From Patescibacteria group bacterium (GTDB lineage Bacteria; Patescibacteriota; Saccharimonadia; Saccharimonadales; 2-12-FULL-41-12): a stretch of DNA of 64,000 nucleotides. The DNA lies in NCBI GenBank assembly GCA_038064875.1, contig JBBTSC010000001.1, positions 443,004 through 507,003 on the forward strand, read 5' to 3'. The notes below the pieces were generated by a model. That model had not been told where the DNA came from. It saw only the letters and a program-made list of their open reading frames with translations, and made no database searches. The translations under genes were made by a program, and so were the position numbers. Below, in pieces: positions 4,396 through 42,193 of the stretch; within the stretch, counting starts at the first letter, position 1, and every line of letters begins with the position of its first letter.

Positions 4396-4793
4396 GGGGC
4401 TGATTTTAGCTCGACATTGGACTTTTACAGATTGGTTCGCATATCGCTTGCTGAGCGTCATACGGCAAAACCCTTAACTGCAAATGCATTTAAGAGCGTA
4501 AAGAATTTTGTTGCTAGTATTTTTACTCCTCAATATTCTTACGCAATAGCCTAAGTTTAATCTTAAGCCACGGACTTGATCGACATCAGATAGATCATCT
4601 TCCGTGTTATATTATCTGATTGCTAGAATCCCGCGCCTCTTTCCGTGGATTCTCTAAGACCATGAAAGATGCGAAAATATCGTTTTGTTTGTTTAACCGA
4701 TGTTTTCTAAGACAACTCAAACAAACTAAATATGTAGAAGACCAGTCAAAGTAAAACCGATGGACGTGGGTGCAATACCCACCAGCTCCACCA
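4396..4793 (+). ncRNA. ssrA: tmRNA (SsrA)
   Basis: 5' GGGGCTGATTTTAGCTCGAC and 3' GGACGTGGGTGCAATACCCACCAGCTCCACCA form the tRNA-Ala-like domain. The internal tag frame ends ...SIFTPQYSYAIA then TAA (4552-4554). Confidence 0.85.
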
Positions 4794-15952: not shown

Positions 15953-17125
15953 TTACTGGATGCGCGGGATGATCGTGGCTGTGAAGAACAGCGGATCGGC
16001 AGGTTTGCCTCCAGCGCTCGCGATTGCCTTGAACTCAGCAGTTCCGGGTGAGTCCGCCCACAGCGTTGCCGTGAAGCATTTTGACTTTGCCGGACATGGC
16101 TGATTGCTTCCGAGCACGGTGACTGGCTGAATGCCAGAAACGTGCGCGTATGGGTTGGGGCCAGTGGTCTGACCGTTTGTACCGGGAACGATCGAGAGGA
16201 TGTTGAAGGAGTCAATGTTGTCTCCGTCGGGATCCGTAACGATGAACCACAGTTGTCGGTTGTCACCGGCCATGGTGTGCGCGGTCATGCCGTCGTTGCT
16301 GATTGTTGGTGGACGATCACAGTCTCCATTGCTGGGGATTGGACGTCCGTCCGGGCACTTCGGCGTCGGTGGTGGTTCTGTTGGACCGCAGATGACTGTG
16401 CCACCTGGACTGTTCACGTTCGAACAGATGTTCGTGACGTTGCAGTTACCTCCTTGGTCGTTGTTATCTCCACCAACGTTGACGTTGCCACATTGGTTTT
16501 GAATCACAACGCATTGGTTGCCTTGCTTGATGGTGCCGGCCTGACAGTCTTGCGTGGTGGTCTGTGTCTGTACAACACATTGGTCGACGGAGTTAACCAC
16601 CTTGCCAGAGTCAGAGCAGACGATGGTCCCCTTGGGAGGCTTGGGCTTCTTCGGGGGCTTCGGCTTCTTCTTGCACGGACGTTTGACGAGCAAGTTTCCT
16701 ACCTGCTTGTTACCGCATCGTGCTTCGTAGCCGTGCTTCGTGCGTGCCTTCTTGCATGGCGCCGGAGCGTACTTCTCGGGAACCCAGTAGACGGATCCTT
16801 CCGGGATGTACTTCTTCGGGCCCTTGACCTTCTTGAACTTGCCACCTGTGCAGGTGAAGTTCGTCACGTAACCGCCCTTGACGACGATCGTTTTCACGAT
16901 GCCACCTTTGACGATTGAACGAGCCGAGCCGTCGAGGCCTGGTTTCTGACCGGTTGAACGTGCGACCTCGTCGAGGACGCCTTTGGACTTCCAGCCATTG
17001 ATGACCGAGGAAATTGACTTTCCTCCACCACAGGCTCCCGCTGCTGACGCAGATGAGACAAAAATCGTCCCAACCACAGCCATGCAGGCGAGCACCGCAG
17101 TCGTAGTTGCTATTACCTTACGCAT
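15953..17125 (-). CDS. secreted Cys/Gln/Asn-rich protein of unknown function, GC-rich (probably foreign) gene
   Basis: Longest ORF in a GC-rich block. Signal peptide MRKVIATTTAVLACMAVVGTIFVSSASA; SD GGAGGTG 7 nt upstream. The antisense track ORFs here are GC artefacts. Confidence 0.7.
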   Translation of the reverse strand: MRKVIATTTAVLACMAVVGTIFVSSASAAGACGGGKSISSVINGWKSKGVLDEVARSTGQKPGLDGSARSIVKGGIVKTIVVKGGYVTNFTCTGGKFKKVKGPKKYIPEGSVYWVPEKYAPAPCKKARTKHGYEARCGNKQVGNLLVKRPCKKKPKPPKKPKPPKGTIVCSDSGKVVNSVDQCVVQTQTTTQDCQAGTIKQGNQCVVIQNQCGNVNVGGDNNDQGGNCNVTNICSNVNSPGGTVICGPTEPPPTPKCPDGRPIPSNGDCDRPPTISNDGMTAHTMAGDNRQLWFIVTDPDGDNIDSFNILSIVPGTNGQTTGPNPYAHVSGIQPVTVLGSNQPCPAKSKCFTATLWADSPGTAEFKAIASAGGKPADPLFFTATIIPRIQ

Positions 17126-30410: not shown

Positions 30411-31931
30411 ATGCCAAAAACAAATGCGAAAATTGGTCTTTTAATCCAACACGTGCGACAAGAACGCGGAATGACCCAGGCCAGCCTAGCAAAACATCTA
30501 GGAACAAGTCAGAGTGCGATCAACCGCATAGAAAAAGGTAATCAGAACCTAAGTATTAATATGATCGGCAAGATCAGCGACATCCTCAACAAGCCGATCC
30601 TGCAAGTAGACAGTGGTGCCACAAACCTCCGAATAGAAGGCGGACAAGAGCTATCTGGAAGTGTATCTCTCAAAAAGAGCAAAAATGCAGCTGTTGCACT
30701 TCTGTGCGCGAGCTTGCTCAACCACGGGATAACTCGGTTCAAATCTTTTCCAAAAATAGAAGAGGTCAACAGAATTATTGAAACACTTGAGAGTATCGGC
30801 GTAAAAATCAAATGGGGCAAGAACGGTGACATAGAAATCAGAAGACCGGCAAAACTCAATCTAGAAAAAATAAACTCAAACTCAGCCAAAAAAACAAGAA
30901 GCGTTATTATGTTACTCGGCGCACTGATGCATGAATACAGTGAGTTCAAAATACCATATGCAGGGGGCTGTAAGCTGGGCGAACGTACGGTTACACCACA
31001 TCTTTATGCGCTGGAACAATTCGGTGTATCAATAGATACCAAAAATCATTATTATCATGTTAAATCTACTCCAAAGCACGTTAAGAGAGTAGTATTGTAC
31101 GAAGCTGGAAATACTGTTACCAACAACGTGCTGATGGCTGCGGCTTTCGATACGACTCCTACCATCATTCAGGGCGCAAGTGCTGACTATATGGTGCAAG
31201 ATCTTTGCTCATTTCTGAAAAGATTGGGTGTAAAGATAGACGGAGTTGGATCGCCAGTACTTACGGTCACAGGCATTTCAAAAGCAAAGAAAAATATATC
31301 TTTCAGTGCAACAGAAGACCCGATAGAGGCTATGTTCTTTATTTCTGCAAGTGTGACAACAAATTCTAGTATCACAATCGAGCGAGTACCTTTTCATTGG
31401 ATAGGTCTAGAGCTACTAAAGTTAGAGAAAATGGGCCTTGCCTTTAAAGTTGGTAAGCCCTACCCGTGTGACAACGGAGTTACTGAGCTTGCTGACATAA
31501 AAATCGAAAAGCACGATGGAAATCTCCGCGCACCTATAGAAAAGATCCATCCGAATTTGTGGCCTGGGCTCAACCCGGATAATATTCCATACTTCGTACC
31601 AATTTGTGCAACCGCAAAAGGTAGGACTCTAATCCACGACTGGATGTTTGAAAATCGAGCAATATACTACACCGAACTGACAAAGATTGGGGCACATGTA
31701 GAGCTAGCTGATCCTCATAGATTATATGTAACTGGACCAACAAAGTGGGAAAATAGCGACGTTATTTGCCCCCCTGCTCTACGCCCAGCTAGTCTGCTAC
31801 TGATAGGAATGCTTGCTGCCGATGGAATTAGCACTCTTCGAAATGTTTATACAATAAATAGAGGTTACGAAGATTTGGCTAATAGGCTTAATTCGCTTGG
31901 TGCTAAAATAACCGTAATGAGCGAAATCTAG
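30411..31931 (+). CDS. murA: fusion protein: N-terminal XRE HTH domain plus MurA-type UDP-GlcNAc 1-carboxyvinyltransferase
   Basis: aa 1-65 match the XRE HTH (RQERGMTQASLAKHLGTSQSAINRIEKG). The rest aligns by eye with MurA (SKNAAVALL for K22/N23; YAGGCKLGERTV for the Cys115 loop). Confidence 0.85.
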   Translation: MPKTNAKIGLLIQHVRQERGMTQASLAKHLGTSQSAINRIEKGNQNLSINMIGKISDILNKPILQVDSGATNLRIEGGQELSGSVSLKKSKNAAVALLCASLLNHGITRFKSFPKIEEVNRIIETLESIGVKIKWGKNGDIEIRRPAKLNLEKINSNSAKKTRSVIMLLGALMHEYSEFKIPYAGGCKLGERTVTPHLYALEQFGVSIDTKNHYYHVKSTPKHVKRVVLYEAGNTVTNNVLMAAAFDTTPTIIQGASADYMVQDLCSFLKRLGVKIDGVGSPVLTVTGISKAKKNISFSATEDPIEAMFFISASVTTNSSITIERVPFHWIGLELLKLEKMGLAFKVGKPYPCDNGVTELADIKIEKHDGNLRAPIEKIHPNLWPGLNPDNIPYFVPICATAKGRTLIHDWMFENRAIYYTELTKIGAHVELADPHRLYVTGPTKWENSDVICPPALRPASLLLIGMLAADGISTLRNVYTINRGYEDLANRLNSLGAKITVMSEI

Positions 31932-37184: not shown

Positions 37185-37904
37185 CTACCTGCCCAGAGAC
37201 CTGGCAACTTTGCGTGCTTCAACAGCCAACTGATCATCAACTAATTTTGGCTGATAGTTGCCGAATTTTCTGACAACTGCTTTTTCTATTAACCAGTCTG
37301 CTATAGCTGGATTTTTAGGCAAAAGCGATCCGTGGAGATAGCTACCAATTACGTTTTTATACAGAGCACCTTCTGATTTGTCTTTGCCGTTATTGCCTGC
37401 TCCTCTGACTACTTTCGCCAGCGCCTTTTGATCAGCATCAAGAACAGTCAACCCACTATGATTTTCATAGCCAACAATCTCGCCAAATAAATCACTCTTT
37501 GTCACGATATTACCAATCAATCTCTTTGGTCCACCGACTGTCTGAGCTCCAAAAATACCTATTCCTTCTATCCTATCGCCTTGTGCCGTTTCAAAATACC
37601 GGCCAAAGAGCTGATAGAGACCACAGATCATCAACATTGGCACTCCATCGTCAGCAAGTTTGTGTAAATTTTTACTTATTTTAAGAAGATCGTCACGAAT
37701 TTTATCCTGGCCAGAATCCTGTCCCCCGCCACCGACAATGATGTCCACTTCTTTAGGAAAAGGTTTCCCGGGATGGTGCTCTAAAATTTCAACGCTATAT
37801 CCCTGCCATTCGAGTCGTTTTTTTAAGGTCAGGGCATTTCCCCAGTCACCATATATATTCATCTCCGAGGGATAGAGTTGTAATAGTCTAATTTGCTTGG
37901 TCAT
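37185..37904 (-). CDS. gatD: lipid II isoglutaminyl synthase, glutamine amidotransferase subunit (GatD, CobB/CobQ-like GATase)
   Basis: LYPSEMNIYGDWGN, ICGLYQLFG (Cys nucleophile) and a 4-nt overlap with murT. Confidence 0.85.
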   Translation of the reverse strand: MTKQIRLLQLYPSEMNIYGDWGNALTLKKRLEWQGYSVEILEHHPGKPFPKEVDIIVGGGGQDSGQDKIRDDLLKISKNLHKLADDGVPMLMICGLYQLFGRYFETAQGDRIEGIGIFGAQTVGGPKRLIGNIVTKSDLFGEIVGYENHSGLTVLDADQKALAKVVRGAGNNGKDKSEGALYKNVIGSYLHGSLLPKNPAIADWLIEKAVVRKFGNYQPKLVDDQLAVEARKVARSLGR

Positions 37905-39169
37905 AATACCCTCTCTATATCTGTCTTTTTTCGAAGCAGTTGCCGGAATTCAAGCATTGCAGTATAGGTGCAAAAGATTCTCTTGGGTTTTGTTGGTTTA
38001 GACTCAATAAATTGGTTTAGCGCTTTTGAAAGCTTTGGCTCAACTAAATTTACATGAATATCATCGTACTGAAGTCTAAGAGCCATATCATAAGCACGAA
38101 TTCCGCTTACTGTATTGACCAAATGGCCCAGTGAAGTAAAATCAACATCCCAAAGCCACGACATATCACGCCCATCAGCATAATTATCATTTATTGCGAT
38201 CATGGTCTCCACATTGCTGGAGTTGAATGATTTAAGACCGAGACGAAATCCAGCTGGATTTTTTACCAGCACGAGCTCAAGTGGCTGGCCATTTACGTGG
38301 ACAACCTCGCCTCGCCCAAAAGCAGGCGTTATATCCTCTAAACGTTTTGCGAGAGCATCAAGGTTAATATCATCTTCACAGACCGCTTTTACTAAACAAA
38401 GTGCCGCTGCGATATTGAAAATATTGTAGATACCGGTTATCTTCAGATTAACTGCCAGTGGCTTATTATCAATATATATTTCTGCCTGACTATCTTTAAA
38501 ATCACTCAGTATGACTTCTGCTTCGACCGATGGCTGGTCTGATTTTTTGACACCGTACATCTCATCATCATTTGGAAAATTCTCCTGTAATTTGGGGTCA
38601 ATGCCAAAAAACTTTATTTTTTTGTCACCAAGATCGTCTGCTATTTTCCTAAGCCGAGCATCCTCGCGATTTATAACAACTGTGTCTTTTGTCGCTAGAG
38701 CAATCTTCTGAAGCATACCGGCCGTTACGTCTATCTCACCAAACCGATCGAGCTGATCACGCATGACATTTAGAAGCAAGCTATACCTCGGCTTTATTTC
38801 GCTCACAAAATGTACTGCGTGAGCTTCATCAAGTTCAAGTACGGCGATGTCTGCATCAAGATTGCCATTTAGATCCATCTCGCTAATCAGAGCTGATATC
38901 ACTCCTCTCTTAAAATTACTGCCTGTCGAATTAGAGAACACCTTAAAACCTTGGCTCTCTAAAAGTTCTGTGACTATTTTTGAAGTTGTTGTCTTACCAT
39001 TCGTTCCACTAATGACAATAACGCCATGAGGTAATGTACCAAGTGCTTTTTTTAGGAAAGTTTTGTCTATCTTTTCAACAGCCAAACCAGGCAAAGCTGA
39101 TCCGCCACCCCTGAGTCGTGACGCTACTCGAACGCCTTTACCTATTAATACGGTTGATTTCTTGACCAT
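37901..39169 (-). CDS. murT: lipid II isoglutaminyl synthase, Mur-ligase-like subunit (MurT)
   Basis: P-loop GTNGKTTT, Mur-ligase middle domain and a DUF1727-like C-terminus (DGRDMSWLWDVDF). Confidence 0.85.
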   Translation of the reverse strand: MVKKSTVLIGKGVRVASRLRGGGSALPGLAVEKIDKTFLKKALGTLPHGVIVISGTNGKTTTSKIVTELLESQGFKVFSNSTGSNFKRGVISALISEMDLNGNLDADIAVLELDEAHAVHFVSEIKPRYSLLLNVMRDQLDRFGEIDVTAGMLQKIALATKDTVVINREDARLRKIADDLGDKKIKFFGIDPKLQENFPNDDEMYGVKKSDQPSVEAEVILSDFKDSQAEIYIDNKPLAVNLKITGIYNIFNIAAALCLVKAVCEDDINLDALAKRLEDITPAFGRGEVVHVNGQPLELVLVKNPAGFRLGLKSFNSSNVETMIAINDNYADGRDMSWLWDVDFTSLGHLVNTVSGIRAYDMALRLQYDDIHVNLVEPKLSKALNQFIESKPTKPKRIFCTYTAMLEFRQLLRKKTDIERVL

Positions 39170-39271
39170 GTCAATAATTATAACAGTAAGCTACTACACA
39201 AATTACTAGAAAAAATATGTTATGATATATTTTGCTATTTCTGCAAAATCTATACTCCTGAGGAGGAGACA

Positions 39272-40243
39272 ATGCTAGATAATACGCACCTCGACAATTC
39301 AAGAGGAGCTGTTGTTGATGTCCAGCCTAACAGCTGGGTGCACGACGTTGTCACTCTTTTGGGAGTGACTCTGCCGATCGTGGCAGTTCTGATCGGAGCG
39401 ATCAGCCTGACAGATGGGCTTCCACCGCTCTACGTCATCGTGATGATGGTCGTCTTTCGCTACTTGACTGCCTGGGGAATAACGATTGGTTTTCACCGAT
39501 TGTTCACTCATCGCAGTTTCGAAGCAAGACGTCCTGTCGTAATCATGCTCGCAGTCCTGGGATCACTGGCTCTTGAAGGAGCTATCATCGCATGGGTTGC
39601 CGATCATCGACGACATCACGACTTCACGGACGAGCCGGAAGATCCACACTCCCCGCACGTTTCAACAAGTGGCGAATTCAAAGATCTGGCATGGGGAACA
39701 TTCCGCGGTCTTTGGCACGCCCATTGGGGATGGCTTTTCACCGTTGGTTCATCCAACGAAGGAAGGTACGCCAACGATCTGGTTAAAGACCCCACAATCC
39801 GCCTGATCAGCAAGCTGTTCCCGCTCTTTGCGCTTCTAACGATAGCCATTCCAGTAGTTTTGGGATATGCAATCGACGGGACGCAAGGTATGTGGGATTG
39901 TCTGATTTGGGCTGTAGGAGTCAGAATCTTCTGGGTTCACCACGCAACCTGGTTCGTCAACTCAATCGGCCATATGTACGGCAAACGTCCGTTTGTTCCG
40001 CGCACAAAAGAAGATAAGAGCACTAACAACGCCTTTGTTGCGCTCGTAGCCGAGGGAGAAGGATGGCATCACAACCATCACGTCTTTCCTTTGTCTGCAA
40101 AGCACGGCATTCTTCCCGGTCAAATCGATGTTTCATACCGCATCATCAAAGCCCTCGAAAAAGTCGGCCTCACAAGGAATGTGGACATGCACGTCCCGTC
40201 CGAGGAAAAAATTTCTGCCAAACTCGCCGAAGCCAAAAGCTGA
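39272..40243 (+). CDS. membrane acyl-CoA (stearoyl-CoA-type, DesA3-like) fatty acid desaturase; GC-rich gene
   Basis: Three His boxes (HRLFTH, HRRHH, HHNHH) and TM helices. GC is 50-60% in the sampled lines. Confidence 0.85.
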   Translation: MLDNTHLDNSRGAVVDVQPNSWVHDVVTLLGVTLPIVAVLIGAISLTDGLPPLYVIVMMVVFRYLTAWGITIGFHRLFTHRSFEARRPVVIMLAVLGSLALEGAIIAWVADHRRHHDFTDEPEDPHSPHVSTSGEFKDLAWGTFRGLWHAHWGWLFTVGSSNEGRYANDLVKDPTIRLISKLFPLFALLTIAIPVVLGYAIDGTQGMWDCLIWAVGVRIFWVHHATWFVNSIGHMYGKRPFVPRTKEDKSTNNAFVALVAEGEGWHHNHHVFPLSAKHGILPGQIDVSYRIIKALEKVGLTRNVDMHVPSEEKISAKLAEAKS

Positions 40244-40348
40244 CGCTTGAGTCGAACCGGACCAAAAGTCTGAAGGCAGTAACCCCCCGGTTATATAATT
40301 TATAAAATTATTAATCGGGGGGAGCAGTACAAAATTATTTTAGTTAAG

Positions 40349-40383
40349 AAAAAAGACCACCTGAAATGGTGATCTTTTTTGTT
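40349..40383. terminator. bidirectional hairpin with flanking A- and T-runs
   Basis: AAAAGACCACC pairs with GGTGATCTTTT (one C/A mismatch) around a 6-nt loop. Confidence 0.5.
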
Positions 40384-40500
40384 TGGTCGGGGTGAAAGGG
40401 GCTGCCTCTGGCACGTTTGCCAGAAGACTGGCTTCACGAGCAAACCTCCGACTATTGCCTGCCATAGGCAGTCAAGTCGAAGAACCGACTCTTTTCTCCA
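40384..40500. other. GC-rich hairpin-dense element (about 117 nt) whose minus-strand 3' end duplicates the tRNA-Pro 3' end
   Basis: The 16-nt TGGTCGGGGTGAAAGG at 40384-40399 is identical to 40538-40553. Hairpins at 40419-40432, 40459-40471 and 40475-40490. Terminator-like hairpins sit on both sides. Confidence 0.35.
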
Positions 40501-40501
40501 A

Positions 40502-40528
40502 CAAAAAAATACCCCGTCAAACGACAGG
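40502..40528 (-). terminator. intrinsic terminator after tRNA-Pro
   Basis: On the minus strand: CCTGTC-GTTT-GACGGG followed by GTATTTTTTT. Confidence 0.55.
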
Positions 40529-40537
40529 ATATTTTTC

Positions 40538-40613
40538 TGGTCGGGGTGAAAGGACTCAAACCTTCGACCTCTCGGTCCCAAACCGAGCGCGCTATCAACT
40601 GCGCCACACCCCG
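40538..40613 (-). tRNA. tRNA-Pro (anticodon UGG), CCA encoded; unusual D and T loops
   Basis: Hand-folded: anticodon arm CTCGG-TTTGGGA-CCGAG. T loop is TTTGAGT (U56) and D loop is AGTTGATA (A19). Confidence 0.88.
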
Positions 40614-40634
40614 ATAATCCAATTAGCCTATTAT

Positions 40635-40673
40635 AACAGATTGATTAGATGATAAAAAGATATTCAATCTGTT
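40635..40673. promoter_or_regulatory. 10-bp perfect inverted repeat in the tRNA-Pro / purF divergent region
   Basis: AACAGATTGA (40635-40644) pairs with TCAATCTGTT (40664-40673). It lies between a minus-strand TATAAT (40630-40635) and the purF TGgTATAAT (40692-40700). Confidence 0.35.
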
Positions 40674-40720
40674 TATCTAACCCACTATTTCTGGTATAAT
40701 ACTACCTTAGTAATCTAAAA

Positions 40721-42193
40721 GTGGTAAAGGATTATCATACACTCGTGGCTATAGACCATAAATTAAGTGAAAAATGTGCAGTATTCGGAATTTACGGATC
40801 CGAGGACGCAGCACGAACAGCTTACTTCGGTCTCTGGGCTCTCCAACATCGTGGCCAAGAAGGCTCTGGGATAGTCAGTAGTGACGGGCAACAAATCCAC
40901 CGCTTTGCAGACTTTGGGTTAGTCGCACACGTATACACAGAAGAAGATCTTTCAGCACTTCCTGGATCAATCGCAATAGGTCACAACCGATATGCAACTT
41001 CTGGTGAAACCGATGGAGACTATCTACAACCTTTCCTGGACAATAAGAATAGTTTTGCTGTAGCTCACAATGGCAACTTGCCAGATTGTAGCAAGCTTAT
41101 AGAATTTCTAAAGCAAAATAATCTCTGGGCTGAGAACCTAAATGACTCACAGATGATGCACCGGGCAATCGGACACTTTATGAGCCAAGGATCATCACTC
41201 CCTGAAAGCATAAAACAAGCATACCCCTTACTAACAGGGGTTTTTTCATGCGTTGCTATGGACAAGAACCAACTAGTAGCTTTCCGCGATGAGTGCGGAA
41301 TACGTCCTCTCTCTATAGGTCATCTAGAAAATGGTAGTTACGTCGTCGCATCGGAGACTTGTGCTTTTGAAACTATCGGTGCAACCTATGTTCGTGACGT
41401 GGCACCTGGAGAAATAGTCTTTATTGATGATAATGGTATCAACTCTATCCAGGCTGTCACCGCCAACCCCAAATTTGATATTTTTGAATTTGTATATTTT
41501 GCGCGACCTGATAGCGTGATCATGGGTAAAAGCGTCAGTACAGTACGCGAAAATCTTGGCAAACAAATGGCAAAAGAATTTAACGTAACTGCAGATGTTG
41601 TTATACCGGTTCCGGATTCATCTGTCCCAGCAGCACTTGGTTATGCAGAGCAAAGTGGTATCAAATTCAGCATGGGACTTGTCAAAAACAGATACATCAA
41701 TAGAACTTTTATCCAACCTACCGATGCCCTCCGAAAAAGAGATGTAAAAATGAAACTCAACCCTGTTATTGACATGATAAAGGGCAAACGAGTTATCTTG
41801 GTAGATGATTCGATCGTCCGCGGAACAACTATGAGACAAGTTATTGAAATGCTCCGTTCAGCTGGTGCTACAGAAGTGCATCTTGCTATTAGCTCCCCCC
41901 CTATTCGCTATCCTGACTTTTACGGCATAAACACCCCTCTTCAAAGTGAACTGATAGCTTCTAAAATGAGCGTCAAAGAAATGTGTGATAACCTCGGTGC
42001 AGACTCACTTAATTTCCTATCTATTGACGGGATGATTGCCTCTACAGGGCTCCCTGCAGACGGATTCTCTTTGTCATTTTTTGACGGGGTTTATCCTATT
42101 GATATCGGGAGCCGAGCTAAGGAAGTAGCTCAGATAGCAGAAGATTTTGACTCCACTCAAGAGACAAGTAATCTGGTAGAATCTCACGCCTAG
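40721..42193 (+). CDS. purF: amidophosphoribosyltransferase
   Basis: GTG start. Has a propeptide then CAVFGIYG (N-terminal Cys nucleophile) and the PRPP motif VILVDDSIVRGTT. Confidence 0.9.
   Translation: MVKDYHTLVAIDHKLSEKCAVFGIYGSEDAARTAYFGLWALQHRGQEGSGIVSSDGQQIHRFADFGLVAHVYTEEDLSALPGSIAIGHNRYATSGETDGDYLQPFLDNKNSFAVAHNGNLPDCSKLIEFLKQNNLWAENLNDSQMMHRAIGHFMSQGSSLPESIKQAYPLLTGVFSCVAMDKNQLVAFRDECGIRPLSIGHLENGSYVVASETCAFETIGATYVRDVAPGEIVFIDDNGINSIQAVTANPKFDIFEFVYFARPDSVIMGKSVSTVRENLGKQMAKEFNVTADVVIPVPDSSVPAALGYAEQSGIKFSMGLVKNRYINRTFIQPTDALRKRDVKMKLNPVIDMIKGKRVILVDDSIVRGTTMRQVIEMLRSAGATEVHLAISSPPIRYPDFYGINTPLQSELIASKMSVKEMCDNLGADSLNFLSIDGMIASTGLPADGFSLSFFDGVYPIDIGSRAKEVAQIAEDFDSTQETSNLVESHA

What the first reader, a model, noticed from the sequence alone, without database searches (positions are those of the whole stretch)
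40349..40553. 16-nt duplicate of the tRNA-Pro 3' end closing a hairpin-dense ~117-nt element boxed in by two terminators
Seen:
- TGGTCGGGGTGAAAGG occurs twice, at 40538-40553 (the 3' end of tRNA-Pro including CCA, minus strand) and at 40384-40399.
- On the minus strand the second copy gives an RNA ending ...CCTTTCACCCCGACCA, exactly like the tRNA.
- Just upstream, CGGGGTA (inside the tRNA-Pro terminator) mimics the tRNA 5' end CGGGGTG.
- D and anticodon arms are absent. In their place are three 5-bp GC hairpins: GCCAG-AAGA-CTGGC (40419-40432), CTGCC-ATA-GGCAG (40459-40471) and AGTCG-AAGAAC-CGACT (40475-40490). Alternative long-range pairing is possible between 40402-40413 and 40460-40471.
- Terminator-like hairpins with A/T runs flank it on both sides (40349-40383 and 40502-40528).
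- It lies between tRNA-Pro and the GC-rich desaturase.

Inference, three options:
1. An att-type scar from an integration at the tRNA 3' end.
2. A tandem tRNA-Pro copy whose core was replaced.
3. A small structured RNA with a tRNA-like CCA terminus.

I could not match it to SRP, 6S or RNase P motifs.
Basis: partly seen in the sequence, partly recalled or inferred. Interest (0 to 1): 0.6.

Follow-up and report, generated by a model that had tools for sequence, protein, structure and literature searches.

The report
Leftover tRNA-Pro fragment beside tRNA-Pro
Next to the proline tRNA gene of this groundwater Saccharibacteria genome lies a 154-base optional insert that ends in a copy of the tRNA's last 16 bases; it is most likely a non-functional leftover of DNA recombination at the tRNA gene, a well-known kind of scar, and not a new RNA gene.

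Summary

Two close relatives (L028, L006) have tRNA-Pro joined directly to the window's distal terminator. The window therefore carries a 154-nt insert bounded by the 16-nt direct repeat.

The insert has two parts:
- a substitute terminator for the tRNA;
- a 104-nt rearranged partial tRNA-Pro copy with no 5' acceptor strand and no D arm. ARAGORN and Rfam call no tRNA or RNA family there.

The "CGGGGTA acceptor mimic" exists only in the window.

I found the element in 3 of 10 lineages examined, including one very distant Saccharibacteria lineage (L017).

Its 92% identity to the L007 copy equals that of the neighbouring non-coding DNA (93%), in a recently exchanged block. Four-fold sites there are 87% identical, against 46% in purF. 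So nothing points to selection on the element.

No integrase lies nearby, and no phage or plasmid match was found.

Best reading: a decayed att-type scar, that is, a tRNA gene fragment at a recombination hotspot. This is a known kind. A tRNA-derived structured RNA is not excluded (about 15%), because one long hairpin shows two compensatory pairs.

The parts
40538..40613 (-). Intact tRNA-Pro(UGG) with encoded CCA. Its last 16 nt (40538-40553) are direct-repeat copy 1.
   Evidence: ARAGORN; Rfam tRNA model 64.6 bits. The sequence is identical in L006, L007 and L028.
40502..40539 (-). Term1: hairpin plus U run directly after the tRNA. It is inside the insert and acts as the substitute terminator of the tRNA. 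It contains the CGGGGTA 'acceptor mimic'.
   Evidence: Inverted repeat I3. It cannot be aligned with the L007 term1, which instead resembles the L017/L026 terminator.
40384..40487 (-). 104-nt core: a rearranged partial tRNA-Pro copy. In order it holds CGGTT (anticodon-stem 5' strand), a long hairpin, TAGTCGGAGGTTTG (variable loop, T stem and T-loop start), 41 nt of filler, then the 16-mer.
   Evidence: (D5). Identity to the L007 core is 96/104 with no indels. ARAGORN calls no tRNA here and Rfam finds no family.
40446..40482 (-). Stem A: CUUCGAC/GUCGGAG closing UUG-A-CUGCC-UAU-GGCAG-G-CAA. It is the only helix kept in all three family members.
   Evidence: RNAalifold gives 15 pairs in stem A (19 with the adjoining basal pairs). 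Two pairs are compensatory in L017 and one changes U-A to U-G in the window. Single-sequence folds agree.
40400..40440 (-). 41-nt filler at the T-loop position. It holds the GCCAG-UCUU-CUGGC hairpin and the alternative CUGGC-AAACGU-GCCAG pairing. L017 has an unalignable 51-nt filler at the same place.
40384..40399 (-). Direct-repeat copy 2 (CCTTTCACCCCGACCA on the tRNA strand): T-stem 3' strand, acceptor 3' strand, discriminator base and CCA.
   Evidence: The boundaries are the same in L007. In L017 the repeat is 28 nt and runs 12 nt past CCA.
40346..40383 (-). Term2: the ancestral tRNA-Pro terminator. In relatives without the insert it follows the tRNA directly.
   Evidence: Inverted repeat I5. 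The alignment with L028 and L006 shows the tRNA CCA joined to this hairpin.
40283..40322 (.). CCCCCCGG...CGGGGGG inverted repeat downstream of the desaturase. It is context, conserved in L007 and L028, and not part of the insert.
   Evidence: (I2/I4).
39272..40243 (+). Acyl-CoA desaturase, recently exchanged foreign DNA on the variable side of the tRNA. It serves as the local yardstick of divergence.
   Evidence: PF00487. The best homologs outside the clade reach at most about 54% identity; the named ones are Actinomycetota. Four-fold sites are 87% identical between the window and L007, against 46% in purF.

Best explanation
[quoted passage not shown] I read it as the decayed footprint of recombination at this tRNA's attachment site.

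**Layout, read along the tRNA strand:**
1. the intact tRNA;
2. a substitute terminator (term1);
3. a rearranged partial tRNA-Pro copy, with anticodon-stem 5' strand, a hairpin, variable-loop/T-stem/T-loop start, filler, and the last 16 nt of the tRNA;
4. the ancestral terminator (term2).

Site-specific integration into a tRNA gene produces this layout: a regenerated gene at one end and a tRNA gene fragment in direct repeat at the other. Here essentially no cargo is left, so it resembles a fully decayed element that kept only attL and attR (CIME-like).

**Shown:**
- the repeat;
- exact empty sites in relatives;
- no tRNA fold;
- sporadic distribution, including one very distant lineage;
- a variable, recently exchanged block that starts at this tRNA;
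- no conservation beyond the local neutral level.

**Inferred:** an integrase made the repeat; the core is the element-side arm or the displaced tRNA fragment; and relatives without it either never had it or lost it by recombination or slippage between the repeats.
For: 1. **Perfect 16-nt direct repeat of the tRNA 3' end.** Chance expectation is 0.01. It is unique among the window's seven tRNAs.
2. **Exact empty sites.** L028/L027 and L006 have tRNA-CCA joined directly to term2 and the same downstream DNA, so the window equals the empty site plus 154 nt.
3. **Sharp-edged perfect repeats in all three carriers** (16, 16 and 28 nt), with unrelated sequence on both sides.
4. **Sporadic distribution.** The element is present in the window, L007 and L017. 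It is absent in L006, L008/9, L021, L022/23, L026 and L027/28.
5. **Very distant carriers.** The window clade and the L017 clade share only 24-31% (GDSL lipase) and 38% (RNase Y) protein identity. They still share derived features: the CTTCGAC inverted block, TAG-TCG with one G fewer than the tRNA, and filler at the T-loop. The L007 term1 matches the L017/L026 terminator in 12+19 flanking nt. Horizontal spread would explain this.
6. **Hotspot.** The MurT-to-tRNA-Pro interval holds different genes in every relative. Window versus L007 DNA is about 90% identical on that side and about 79% on the purF side. Four-fold sites are 87% identical in the desaturase and 46-50% in purF/purN/purD.
7. **No sign of function.**
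   - Core identity between the window and L007 is 96/104 = 92.3%, against 90/97 = 92.8% in the adjacent spacer.
   - Neither ARAGORN nor Rfam calls a tRNA or any family there.
   - The 5' acceptor mimic is absent from L007 and L017.
8. **The same tRNA end serves as an att site elsewhere.** An IMG/VR contig (L020) carries a partial tRNA-Pro fragment ending in this 16-mer, 0.5 kb from a tyrosine integrase.
9. **Literature.** tRNA gene fragments are the expected marks of integration (PMC9897764, PMC4383910). Decayed elements that keep attL/attR are described as CIMEs (PMC5704250).
Against: - No integrase lies between the repeats (138 nt, no ORF), among 30 scanned ORFs of the window, or among the variable genes of L006, L007 and L008.
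- No full-length parent element was found. IMG/VR, phage and plasmid collections hold nothing like the core.
- tRNA homology extends upstream of the repeat, to the D-loop region in L007, and is interrupted by filler. A simple single integration does not predict this.
- In L026 the terminator next to the tRNA is the L017 term1 type, not the term2 type. The 'distal terminator is ancestral' rule therefore holds only in the window clade.
- Term1 is unalignable between the window and L007 although the core is 92% identical, so the history is mosaic.
- Stem A has two compensatory pairs, which could mean selection on a hairpin.
Confidence: 0.55

Rival explanations
1. An old tandem duplication of the unit [tRNA-Pro + terminator]. 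The downstream copy lost its 5' third and picked up filler in the anticodon and T loops. It persists by chance in a few lineages. In others it was removed cleanly by slippage or recombination between the repeats. No mobile element was ever involved.
For: - tRNA-derived blocks lie in the correct order beyond the 16-mer: ATAGCGC-TCGGTT in L007, and TAGTCGRAGGTTYG in all three.
- Each copy has its own terminator.
- In L017 both copies are followed by the same 12 nt, AACAAAGAGTCC.
- The element's GGTTTG/GGTTCG matches the T loop of the tRNA in the same genome.
- No integrase was found anywhere.
Against: - Identity is all-or-none, with perfect 16-28 nt and then unrelated sequence, rather than graded.
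- The element is shared by lineages whose proteins are only 24-38% identical, yet it is missing from 7 of 10 lineages. Vertical descent would need very many independent clean losses plus long-term preservation of a useless sequence in streamlined genomes.
- The L007 term1 resembles that of the distant L017/L026 clade, not that of its near relative, the window.
Confidence: 0.15
2. A functional small structured RNA that evolved from a tRNA-Pro copy. It would be about 105-115 nt, made by read-through of term1 from the tRNA-Pro promoter. It would have a long hairpin (stem A), a variable middle hairpin, a T-arm-like hairpin (RAAGG/CCUUU) and a tRNA-identical 3' tail. It might act as a decoy or substrate for a factor that recognises the tRNA-Pro 3' end.
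For: - Stem A is kept in all three members, with two compensatory pairs and a conserved A-G mismatch.
- CUUCGAC is not tRNA-derived, yet it is invariant across very distant clades.
- All 8 differences between the window and L007 fall in loops, at a terminal pair, or change G-U to A-U on the tRNA strand.
- Folding z-scores are -2.2 and -3.1 for the window and L007 cores.
- A hairpin plus U run follows the element in all three.
Against: - Conservation is no higher than in the adjacent spacer: 92.3% against 92.8%.
- The 3' half differs in sequence and topology between clades.
- No promoter is found, and a strong terminator lies upstream.
- It is absent from most relatives, including the nearest ones.
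- The L017 fold is not better than shuffles (z = -1.2). The opposite strand folds about as well.
- There is no Rfam match.
- Only three sequences are available, and the L017 copy was found with a pattern that required the exact 16-mer.
Confidence: 0.15
3. A still-mobile, non-autonomous miniature integrative element of about 155-170 nt. It would consist only of the two att arms and be moved in trans by an integrase specific for the tRNA-Pro 3' end and encoded elsewhere. That would explain its presence in distant Saccharibacteria.
For: - Precise presence/absence at the repeat.
- Sporadic occurrence across clades, with shared derived features.
- Different left arms (term1) joined to similar right arms, like the mosaicism of mobile elements.
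Against: - There is one copy per genome.
- No integrase was found in the window or loci.
- A circle of about 155 bp is a poor recombination substrate (general knowledge).
- The metagenome scan found only one further copy.
- Transfer can equally be explained by homologous exchange of the whole flank.
Confidence: 0.1

Closest known systems
tRNA gene fragments (attR/attL direct repeats) left by integrative genetic elements, as mapped by Islander/TIGER (PMC4383910, PMC7192596; examples in PMC9897764; Williams 2002, cited there)
   Same: - An intact tRNA gene plus a direct-repeat copy of its 3' part.
- The repeat starts inside the T arm and runs to or past the 3' end.
- Relatives show the uninterrupted site.
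- The flank is a gene-content hotspot.
   Different: - Only 138 nt lie between the repeats, with no integrase and no cargo.
- The fragment carries extra, interrupted tRNA homology upstream of the perfect repeat.
- No parent element has been identified.
[quoted passage not shown]
   Same: - att-like repeats retained around a remnant without recombination genes.
- Further variable DNA begins right after the distal repeat. In L007 a 2.8-kb three-gene block starts at the CCA of repeat copy 2.
   Different: - Described CIMEs are kilobases long and derive from identified ICE families in Firmicutes.
- Here the remnant is about 0.15 kb, in Saccharibacteria.
- Neither its derivation from an ICE/IME nor its mobilisation has been shown.
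Tandemly duplicated tRNA genes and tRNA pseudogenes
   Same: - Same strand, directly downstream of the tRNA, with its own terminator.
- Ordered blocks of homology to the D/anticodon region, the T arm and the acceptor 3' strand.
   Different: - No 5' acceptor strand and no D arm.
- 29-nt and 41-51-nt fillers at the anticodon-loop and T-loop positions.
- Not recognised by ARAGORN or by the Rfam tRNA model.
tRNA-like small RNAs (bacterial Y RNA-like YrlA, the tRNA-like domain of tmRNA)
   Same: A T-arm-like hairpin and a 3' end identical to that of a tRNA.
   Different: - No closing acceptor helix.
- No Rfam hit to any of these families.
- No associated protein gene.
- A standard tmRNA lies elsewhere in the window (4396-4793).

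Membership tests
tRNA gene fragment / att direct repeat of an integrative element | An intact target tRNA gene plus a partial copy of its 3' part in direct orientation | tested here: met
   The 16-mer occurs twice on the same strand, once as the tRNA 3' end. The same holds in L007 and L017.
tRNA gene fragment / att direct repeat of an integrative element | Relatives carry the uninterrupted (empty) site with the same flanks | tested here: met
   In L028/L027 and L006 the tRNA CCA is joined directly to term2 and the same downstream DNA.
tRNA gene fragment / att direct repeat of an integrative element | An integrase (tyrosine or serine recombinase) gene between or next to the repeats | tested here: not met
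   Only 138 nt lie between the repeats. No PF00589 hit was found in 30 window ORFs or in the variable genes of L006, L007 and L008. tblastn with the L020 integrase was negative.
tRNA gene fragment / att direct repeat of an integrative element | Foreign or cargo DNA between the repeats, or a matching attP on a phage, plasmid or ICE | tested here: not met
   IMG/VR pattern scans and phage and plasmid blastn found nothing resembling the core. These collections hold few, if any, Saccharibacteria elements.
tRNA gene fragment / att direct repeat of an integrative element | Excision or integration activity (circular junction, empty-site reads) | not testable with these tools
   This needs raw reads or an experiment.
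CIME (decayed integrative element keeping attL/attR) | Demonstrable derivation from a full ICE/IME, and mobilisation in cis | not testable with these tools
   No parent element was found. Only the attL/attR-like repeats are seen.
Functional tRNA (second tRNA-Pro gene) | A cloverleaf recognised by tRNA models, with a 5' acceptor strand pairing with CACCCCG | tested here: not met
   ARAGORN and the Rfam tRNA model find only 40538-40613. CGGGGTA is present only in the window, inside term1, and is absent in L007 and L017.
Any curated structured RNA family (Rfam 15: tmRNA, Y RNA-like, SRP, 6S, RNase P and others) | A covariance-model match at or near the gathering score | tested here: not met
   Apart from the tRNA, the best match in 40230-40730 scores 25 bits against a gathering score of 48, with E = 0.59.
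Conserved structured non-coding RNA (generic criteria) | Conservation above the local neutral level, and covariation in several helices | tested here: inconclusive
   Conservation equals that of the neighbouring spacer, 92.3% against 92.8%. Stem A has 2 compensatory pairs out of 15, from three sequences. The 3' half is not conserved in topology.
Intrinsic terminators (term1, term2) | A GC-containing hairpin followed by a U run on the transcribed strand, kept as a structure in relatives | tested here: met
   Inverted repeats I3 and I5. Relatives have hairpin plus T run at both positions with different stem sequences. The consensus scanner did not call them.

The most novel reading that the evidence does not exclude
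The core is not junk. One version: it is a tRNA-Pro-derived structured RNA (stem A, a T-arm-like hairpin and a tRNA-identical 3' tail), made by read-through from the tRNA-Pro promoter. The other version: it is the business end of a miniature, non-autonomous element that targets the tRNA-Pro 3' end and moves between deeply divergent Saccharibacteria.
Probability: 0.15. Interest if true: 0.6.

Novelty: new member of a known kind. Interest (0 to 1): 0.25.

Why it matters
In practice it marks tRNA-Pro(UGG) as a recombination and integration hotspot in a clade of groundwater Saccharibacteria. The genes on its 3' side, including a desaturase apparently acquired from Actinomycetota, are swapped between lineages much faster than the rest of the genome. 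That helps explain how these tiny genomes gain accessory functions. It also warns against annotating the fragment as a second tRNA or as a new sRNA. Only if the hairpin-bearing core turned out to be transcribed, or mobile in its own right, would it be of wider interest.

Tried and rejected
- **Rfam.** Searches at gathering and at permissive thresholds gave nothing but the tRNA.
- **Promoter and terminator scan.** No promoter was found for the element on either strand. The flanking terminators were not called by the simple rule.
- **Other copies.** There are none in the window or in any fetched locus.
- **GTDB genome collection.** The purF-based scan and a 20-mer of the core both found nothing. 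The organism's clade is not represented there.
- **IMG/VR.** Four pattern scans gave only chance 17-mer hits and one unrelated phage att fragment.
- **Phage and plasmid blastn.** Nothing was found.
- **JGI metagenome scan.** A gapped pattern (GGTTYG, 30-56 nt, 16-mer) gave one true member, L017, and four chance hits inside genes.
- **Relatives L010 and L011.** Their contigs break inside tRNA-Pro, so they were uninformative.
- **'Conserved because functional'.** I first took the 92% identity against 46% at purF four-fold sites as purifying selection. I rejected this after the desaturase (87% at four-fold sites) and the adjacent spacer (92.8%) gave the same local level.
- **Acceptor-stem mimic (CGGGGTA).** Rejected, because it is absent in L007 and L017.
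- **Hairpin AGTCG/CGACT.** Rejected in favour of CUUCGAC/GUCGRAG (stem A), which is the pairing kept in all three members.
- **Primer-binding-site idea.** The plus-strand complement of the tRNA 3' end resembles a retroelement primer-binding site. I did not pursue it: no reverse transcriptase is present, and any antisense copy would have this property.

Full report
**1. The observation**

The 16-mer TGGTCGGGGTGAAAGG occurs exactly twice in the 64-kb window, at 40384-40399 and 40538-40553. This holds even when two mismatches are allowed. Chance expectation is 0.01, and 0 of 100 shuffles gave two matches.

The second copy is the 3' end, CCA included, of tRNA-Pro(UGG) at 40538-40613 on the minus strand. 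None of the other six tRNAs in the window has a duplicated end.

The three 5-bp hairpins, the 11-of-12 long-range complementarity and the two flanking inverted repeats with A/T runs are all at the stated coordinates.

The region is identical in independent assemblies from other sequencing runs (L001, L002, L005). It is therefore not an assembly artefact.

**2. Host and neighbourhood**

The purF gene next to the tRNA is 84% identical to that of a Candidatus Saccharibacteria MAG. The source contigs come from groundwater metagenomes.

Gene order in the window is:
- MurT/GatD (minus strand);
- desaturase (plus strand);
- a GC-clamped inverted repeat;
- term2, the element, term1 and tRNA-Pro (all minus strand);
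- purF, purN and purD (plus strand).

**3. Relatives**

Using purF, YmdB and desaturase homologs as anchors, I retrieved the tRNA-Pro locus of ten lineages.

*Carriers.* The element is present in three:
- the window;
- L007 (purF 86% identical, assembly GCA_040959485.1);
- L017 (a JGI contig with different neighbouring genes, found with a gapped DNA pattern).

*Non-carriers.* It is absent in L006, L008/L009, L021, L022/L023, L026 and L027/L028.

*Empty sites.* L028 and L006 are exact empty sites. The tRNA's CCA is joined directly to a terminator homologous to the window's term2. In L028 the same downstream inverted repeat and desaturase follow. The window therefore equals the empty site plus 154 nt bounded by the 16-nt direct repeat.

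**4. Anatomy of the insert, read on the tRNA strand**

*a) Term1.* This is a hairpin plus U run (window 40502-40539). Functionally it replaces the tRNA's own terminator.

*b) The 104-nt core (40384-40487).* In order, it contains:
- CGGTT, the 5' strand of the tRNA's anticodon stem. In L007 it is preceded by ATAGCGC, which comes from the D loop and D stem.
- A 29-nt segment that starts with CTTCGAC, the inverted complement of the following GTCGRAG. Together they form a long hairpin, stem A.
- TAGTCGRAGGTTYG, which corresponds to the tRNA's variable loop, T-stem 5' strand and T-loop start. It has one G fewer than the tRNA in all three members.
- 41 nt of filler (51 nt in L017, unalignable with the window).
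- The 16-mer.

*c) What is missing.* There is no D arm and no 5' acceptor strand. It has no counterpart in L007 (TCAGGGC) or L017 (GATGGGC).

*d) Model searches.* ARAGORN and the Rfam tRNA model see nothing here, and no Rfam family comes near its threshold.

**5. Is it conserved because it works?**

At first sight, yes. The cores of the window and L007 are 96/104 identical with no indels. Four-fold degenerate sites of purF, purN and purD are only 46-50% identical.

The local yardstick tells a different story:
- Desaturase four-fold sites are 87% identical.
- The non-coding stretch between the desaturase and term2 is 90/97 = 92.8% identical.
- The whole MurT-desaturase side aligns at about 90%, against about 79% on the purF side.

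The DNA on the 3' side of tRNA-Pro was therefore shared much more recently than the rest of the genome. The core is exactly as similar as its neutral neighbours: P = 0.32 against the local whole-block rate of 9.6% divergence, and P = 0.06 against the 13% divergence at desaturase four-fold sites. This comparison gives no evidence of purifying selection.

**6. Structure**

RNAalifold on the three sequences keeps one long helix, stem A. It consists of CUUCGAC/GUCGRAG plus an inner hairpin. It has two compensatory pairs in L017 and one U-A to U-G change in the window.

A T-arm-like RAAGG/CCUUU hairpin is also possible.

The middle and 3' parts differ in sequence and topology between clades.

| Core | z-score, tRNA strand | z-score, opposite strand |
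|---|---|---|
| Window | -2.2 | -1.5 |
| L007 | -3.1 | -2.9 |
| L017 | -1.2 | -1.3 |

(All.)

No promoter is predicted, and a strong terminator separates the element from the tRNA promoter.

This is too little to call an RNA gene and too much to dismiss entirely.

**7. Origin**

The window clade and the L017 clade are very distant. Their GDSL lipases are 24-31% identical and their RNase Y proteins 38%.

They nevertheless share the derived peculiarities of the core. In addition, the L007 term1 matches the terminator of L017 and L026 in 12 + 19 flanking nucleotides, with compensatory changes in the stem. The term1 of L007's near relative, the window, is unalignable with it.

Four features fit recombination at a tRNA attachment site, with horizontal spread, better than an ancient tandem duplication followed by many independent clean losses:
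- the sporadic distribution (3 of 10 lineages);
- the all-or-none repeat identity (16, 16 and 28 nt);
- the exact empty sites;
- a gene-content hotspot that starts at the repeat. In L007 a 2.8-kb block encoding NrtR-like, AAA_5 and DUF7192 proteins begins right after the CCA of repeat copy 2.

The same tRNA end is used by integrase-bearing elements elsewhere. An IMG/VR contig (L020) has a partial tRNA-Pro fragment ending in this 16-mer, 0.5 kb from a PF00589 integrase.

tRNA gene fragments as marks of integration are well documented (PMC9897764, PMC4383910). So are decayed elements that keep only attL and attR, known as CIMEs (PMC5704250).

**8. Weak points of that reading**

- No integrase was found between the repeats, in 30 scanned ORFs of the window, or in the variable genes of the relatives.
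- No parent element was found in the viral, phage or plasmid collections.
- tRNA homology upstream of the perfect repeat, broken by fillers at the anticodon-loop and T-loop positions, is not what one simple integration leaves.
- The L026 terminator is of the term1 type.

A tandem duplication with later decay therefore remains a serious rival. So does a small functional RNA.

**9. Verdict**

The 'tandem copy with replaced core' is a fair description of the anatomy. The 'tRNA-like RNA closed by an acceptor mimic' is not supported.

This is a new example, in Saccharibacteria, of a known kind of feature. Interest is low to moderate. The residual interest lies in the conserved hairpin and in the cross-clade distribution.

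Noticed in passing
window 39272-40243, with L007 762-1730 and L028 574-1542: The acyl-CoA desaturase looks recently acquired and recently exchanged. The 39-40 kb window has 48% GC against about 42% background. Outside its own 90% cluster the best homologs reach at most about 54% identity, and the named ones are Actinomycetota (Solirubrobacterales). Between lineages its four-fold sites are 75-87% identical, against 44-51% in purF.
   Followed up: partly
window 37901-40613; L006 2138-4705; L007 1852-4572; L008 2590-4298: The interval between MurT and tRNA-Pro holds a different gene set in every relative. These are three genes without Pfam matches (L006); DUF7192, an AAA_5 ATPase and an NrtR-like regulator (L007); and Ham1 plus two unknowns (L008). 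None is an integrase.
   Followed up: partly
window 40283-40322: A GC-clamped inverted repeat, CCCCCCGG-(AT-rich)-CGGGGGG, lies downstream of the desaturase. It is nearly identical in the window, L007 and L028. It may be the desaturase terminator or a protein-binding palindrome.
   Followed up: no
window 4396-4793 (+): Rfam finds a full-length tmRNA (87.5 bits) that ARAGORN did not report.
   Followed up: no
window 15953-17125 (-): A 390-aa ORF with no Pfam match sits in the only strongly GC-rich kilobase of the window (56.5% against about 41%). It may be foreign.
   Followed up: no
window 30411-31931 (+): This 506-aa protein combines an N-terminal Cro/C1-type HTH domain with an EPSP-synthase/MurA-type domain, which is an unusual fusion.
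   Followed up: no
L020 7344-7403 and 7934-8962 (IMG/VR UViG_3300019776_000373): A phage-like contig from a GC-rich host carries a partial tRNA-Pro(UGG) fragment. The fragment runs from the anticodon stem to CCA and ends in the same 16 nt. It lies 0.5 kb from a tyrosine integrase and a phage Gp49-family gene, and is probably an att site.
   Followed up: partly
L010 1-50 and L011 1-20: Logan contigs of two further relatives end inside the tRNA-Pro gene. This is what happens when assembly graphs branch at a conserved tRNA followed by strain-variable DNA.
   Followed up: no
L017 648-760 and L026 3344-3455: tRNA-Pro plus its 38-nt terminator are identical in L017 and L026, although their YmdB proteins are only 84% identical and the tRNA upstream regions differ. 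This hints that the tRNA 3' flank is exchanged in that clade too.
   Followed up: no
L008 4436-4939 (-): A 167-aa ORF without a Pfam match lies between purF and tRNA-Pro and overlaps the tRNA's 5' end by about 20 nt. It is absent from the window clade.
   Followed up: no
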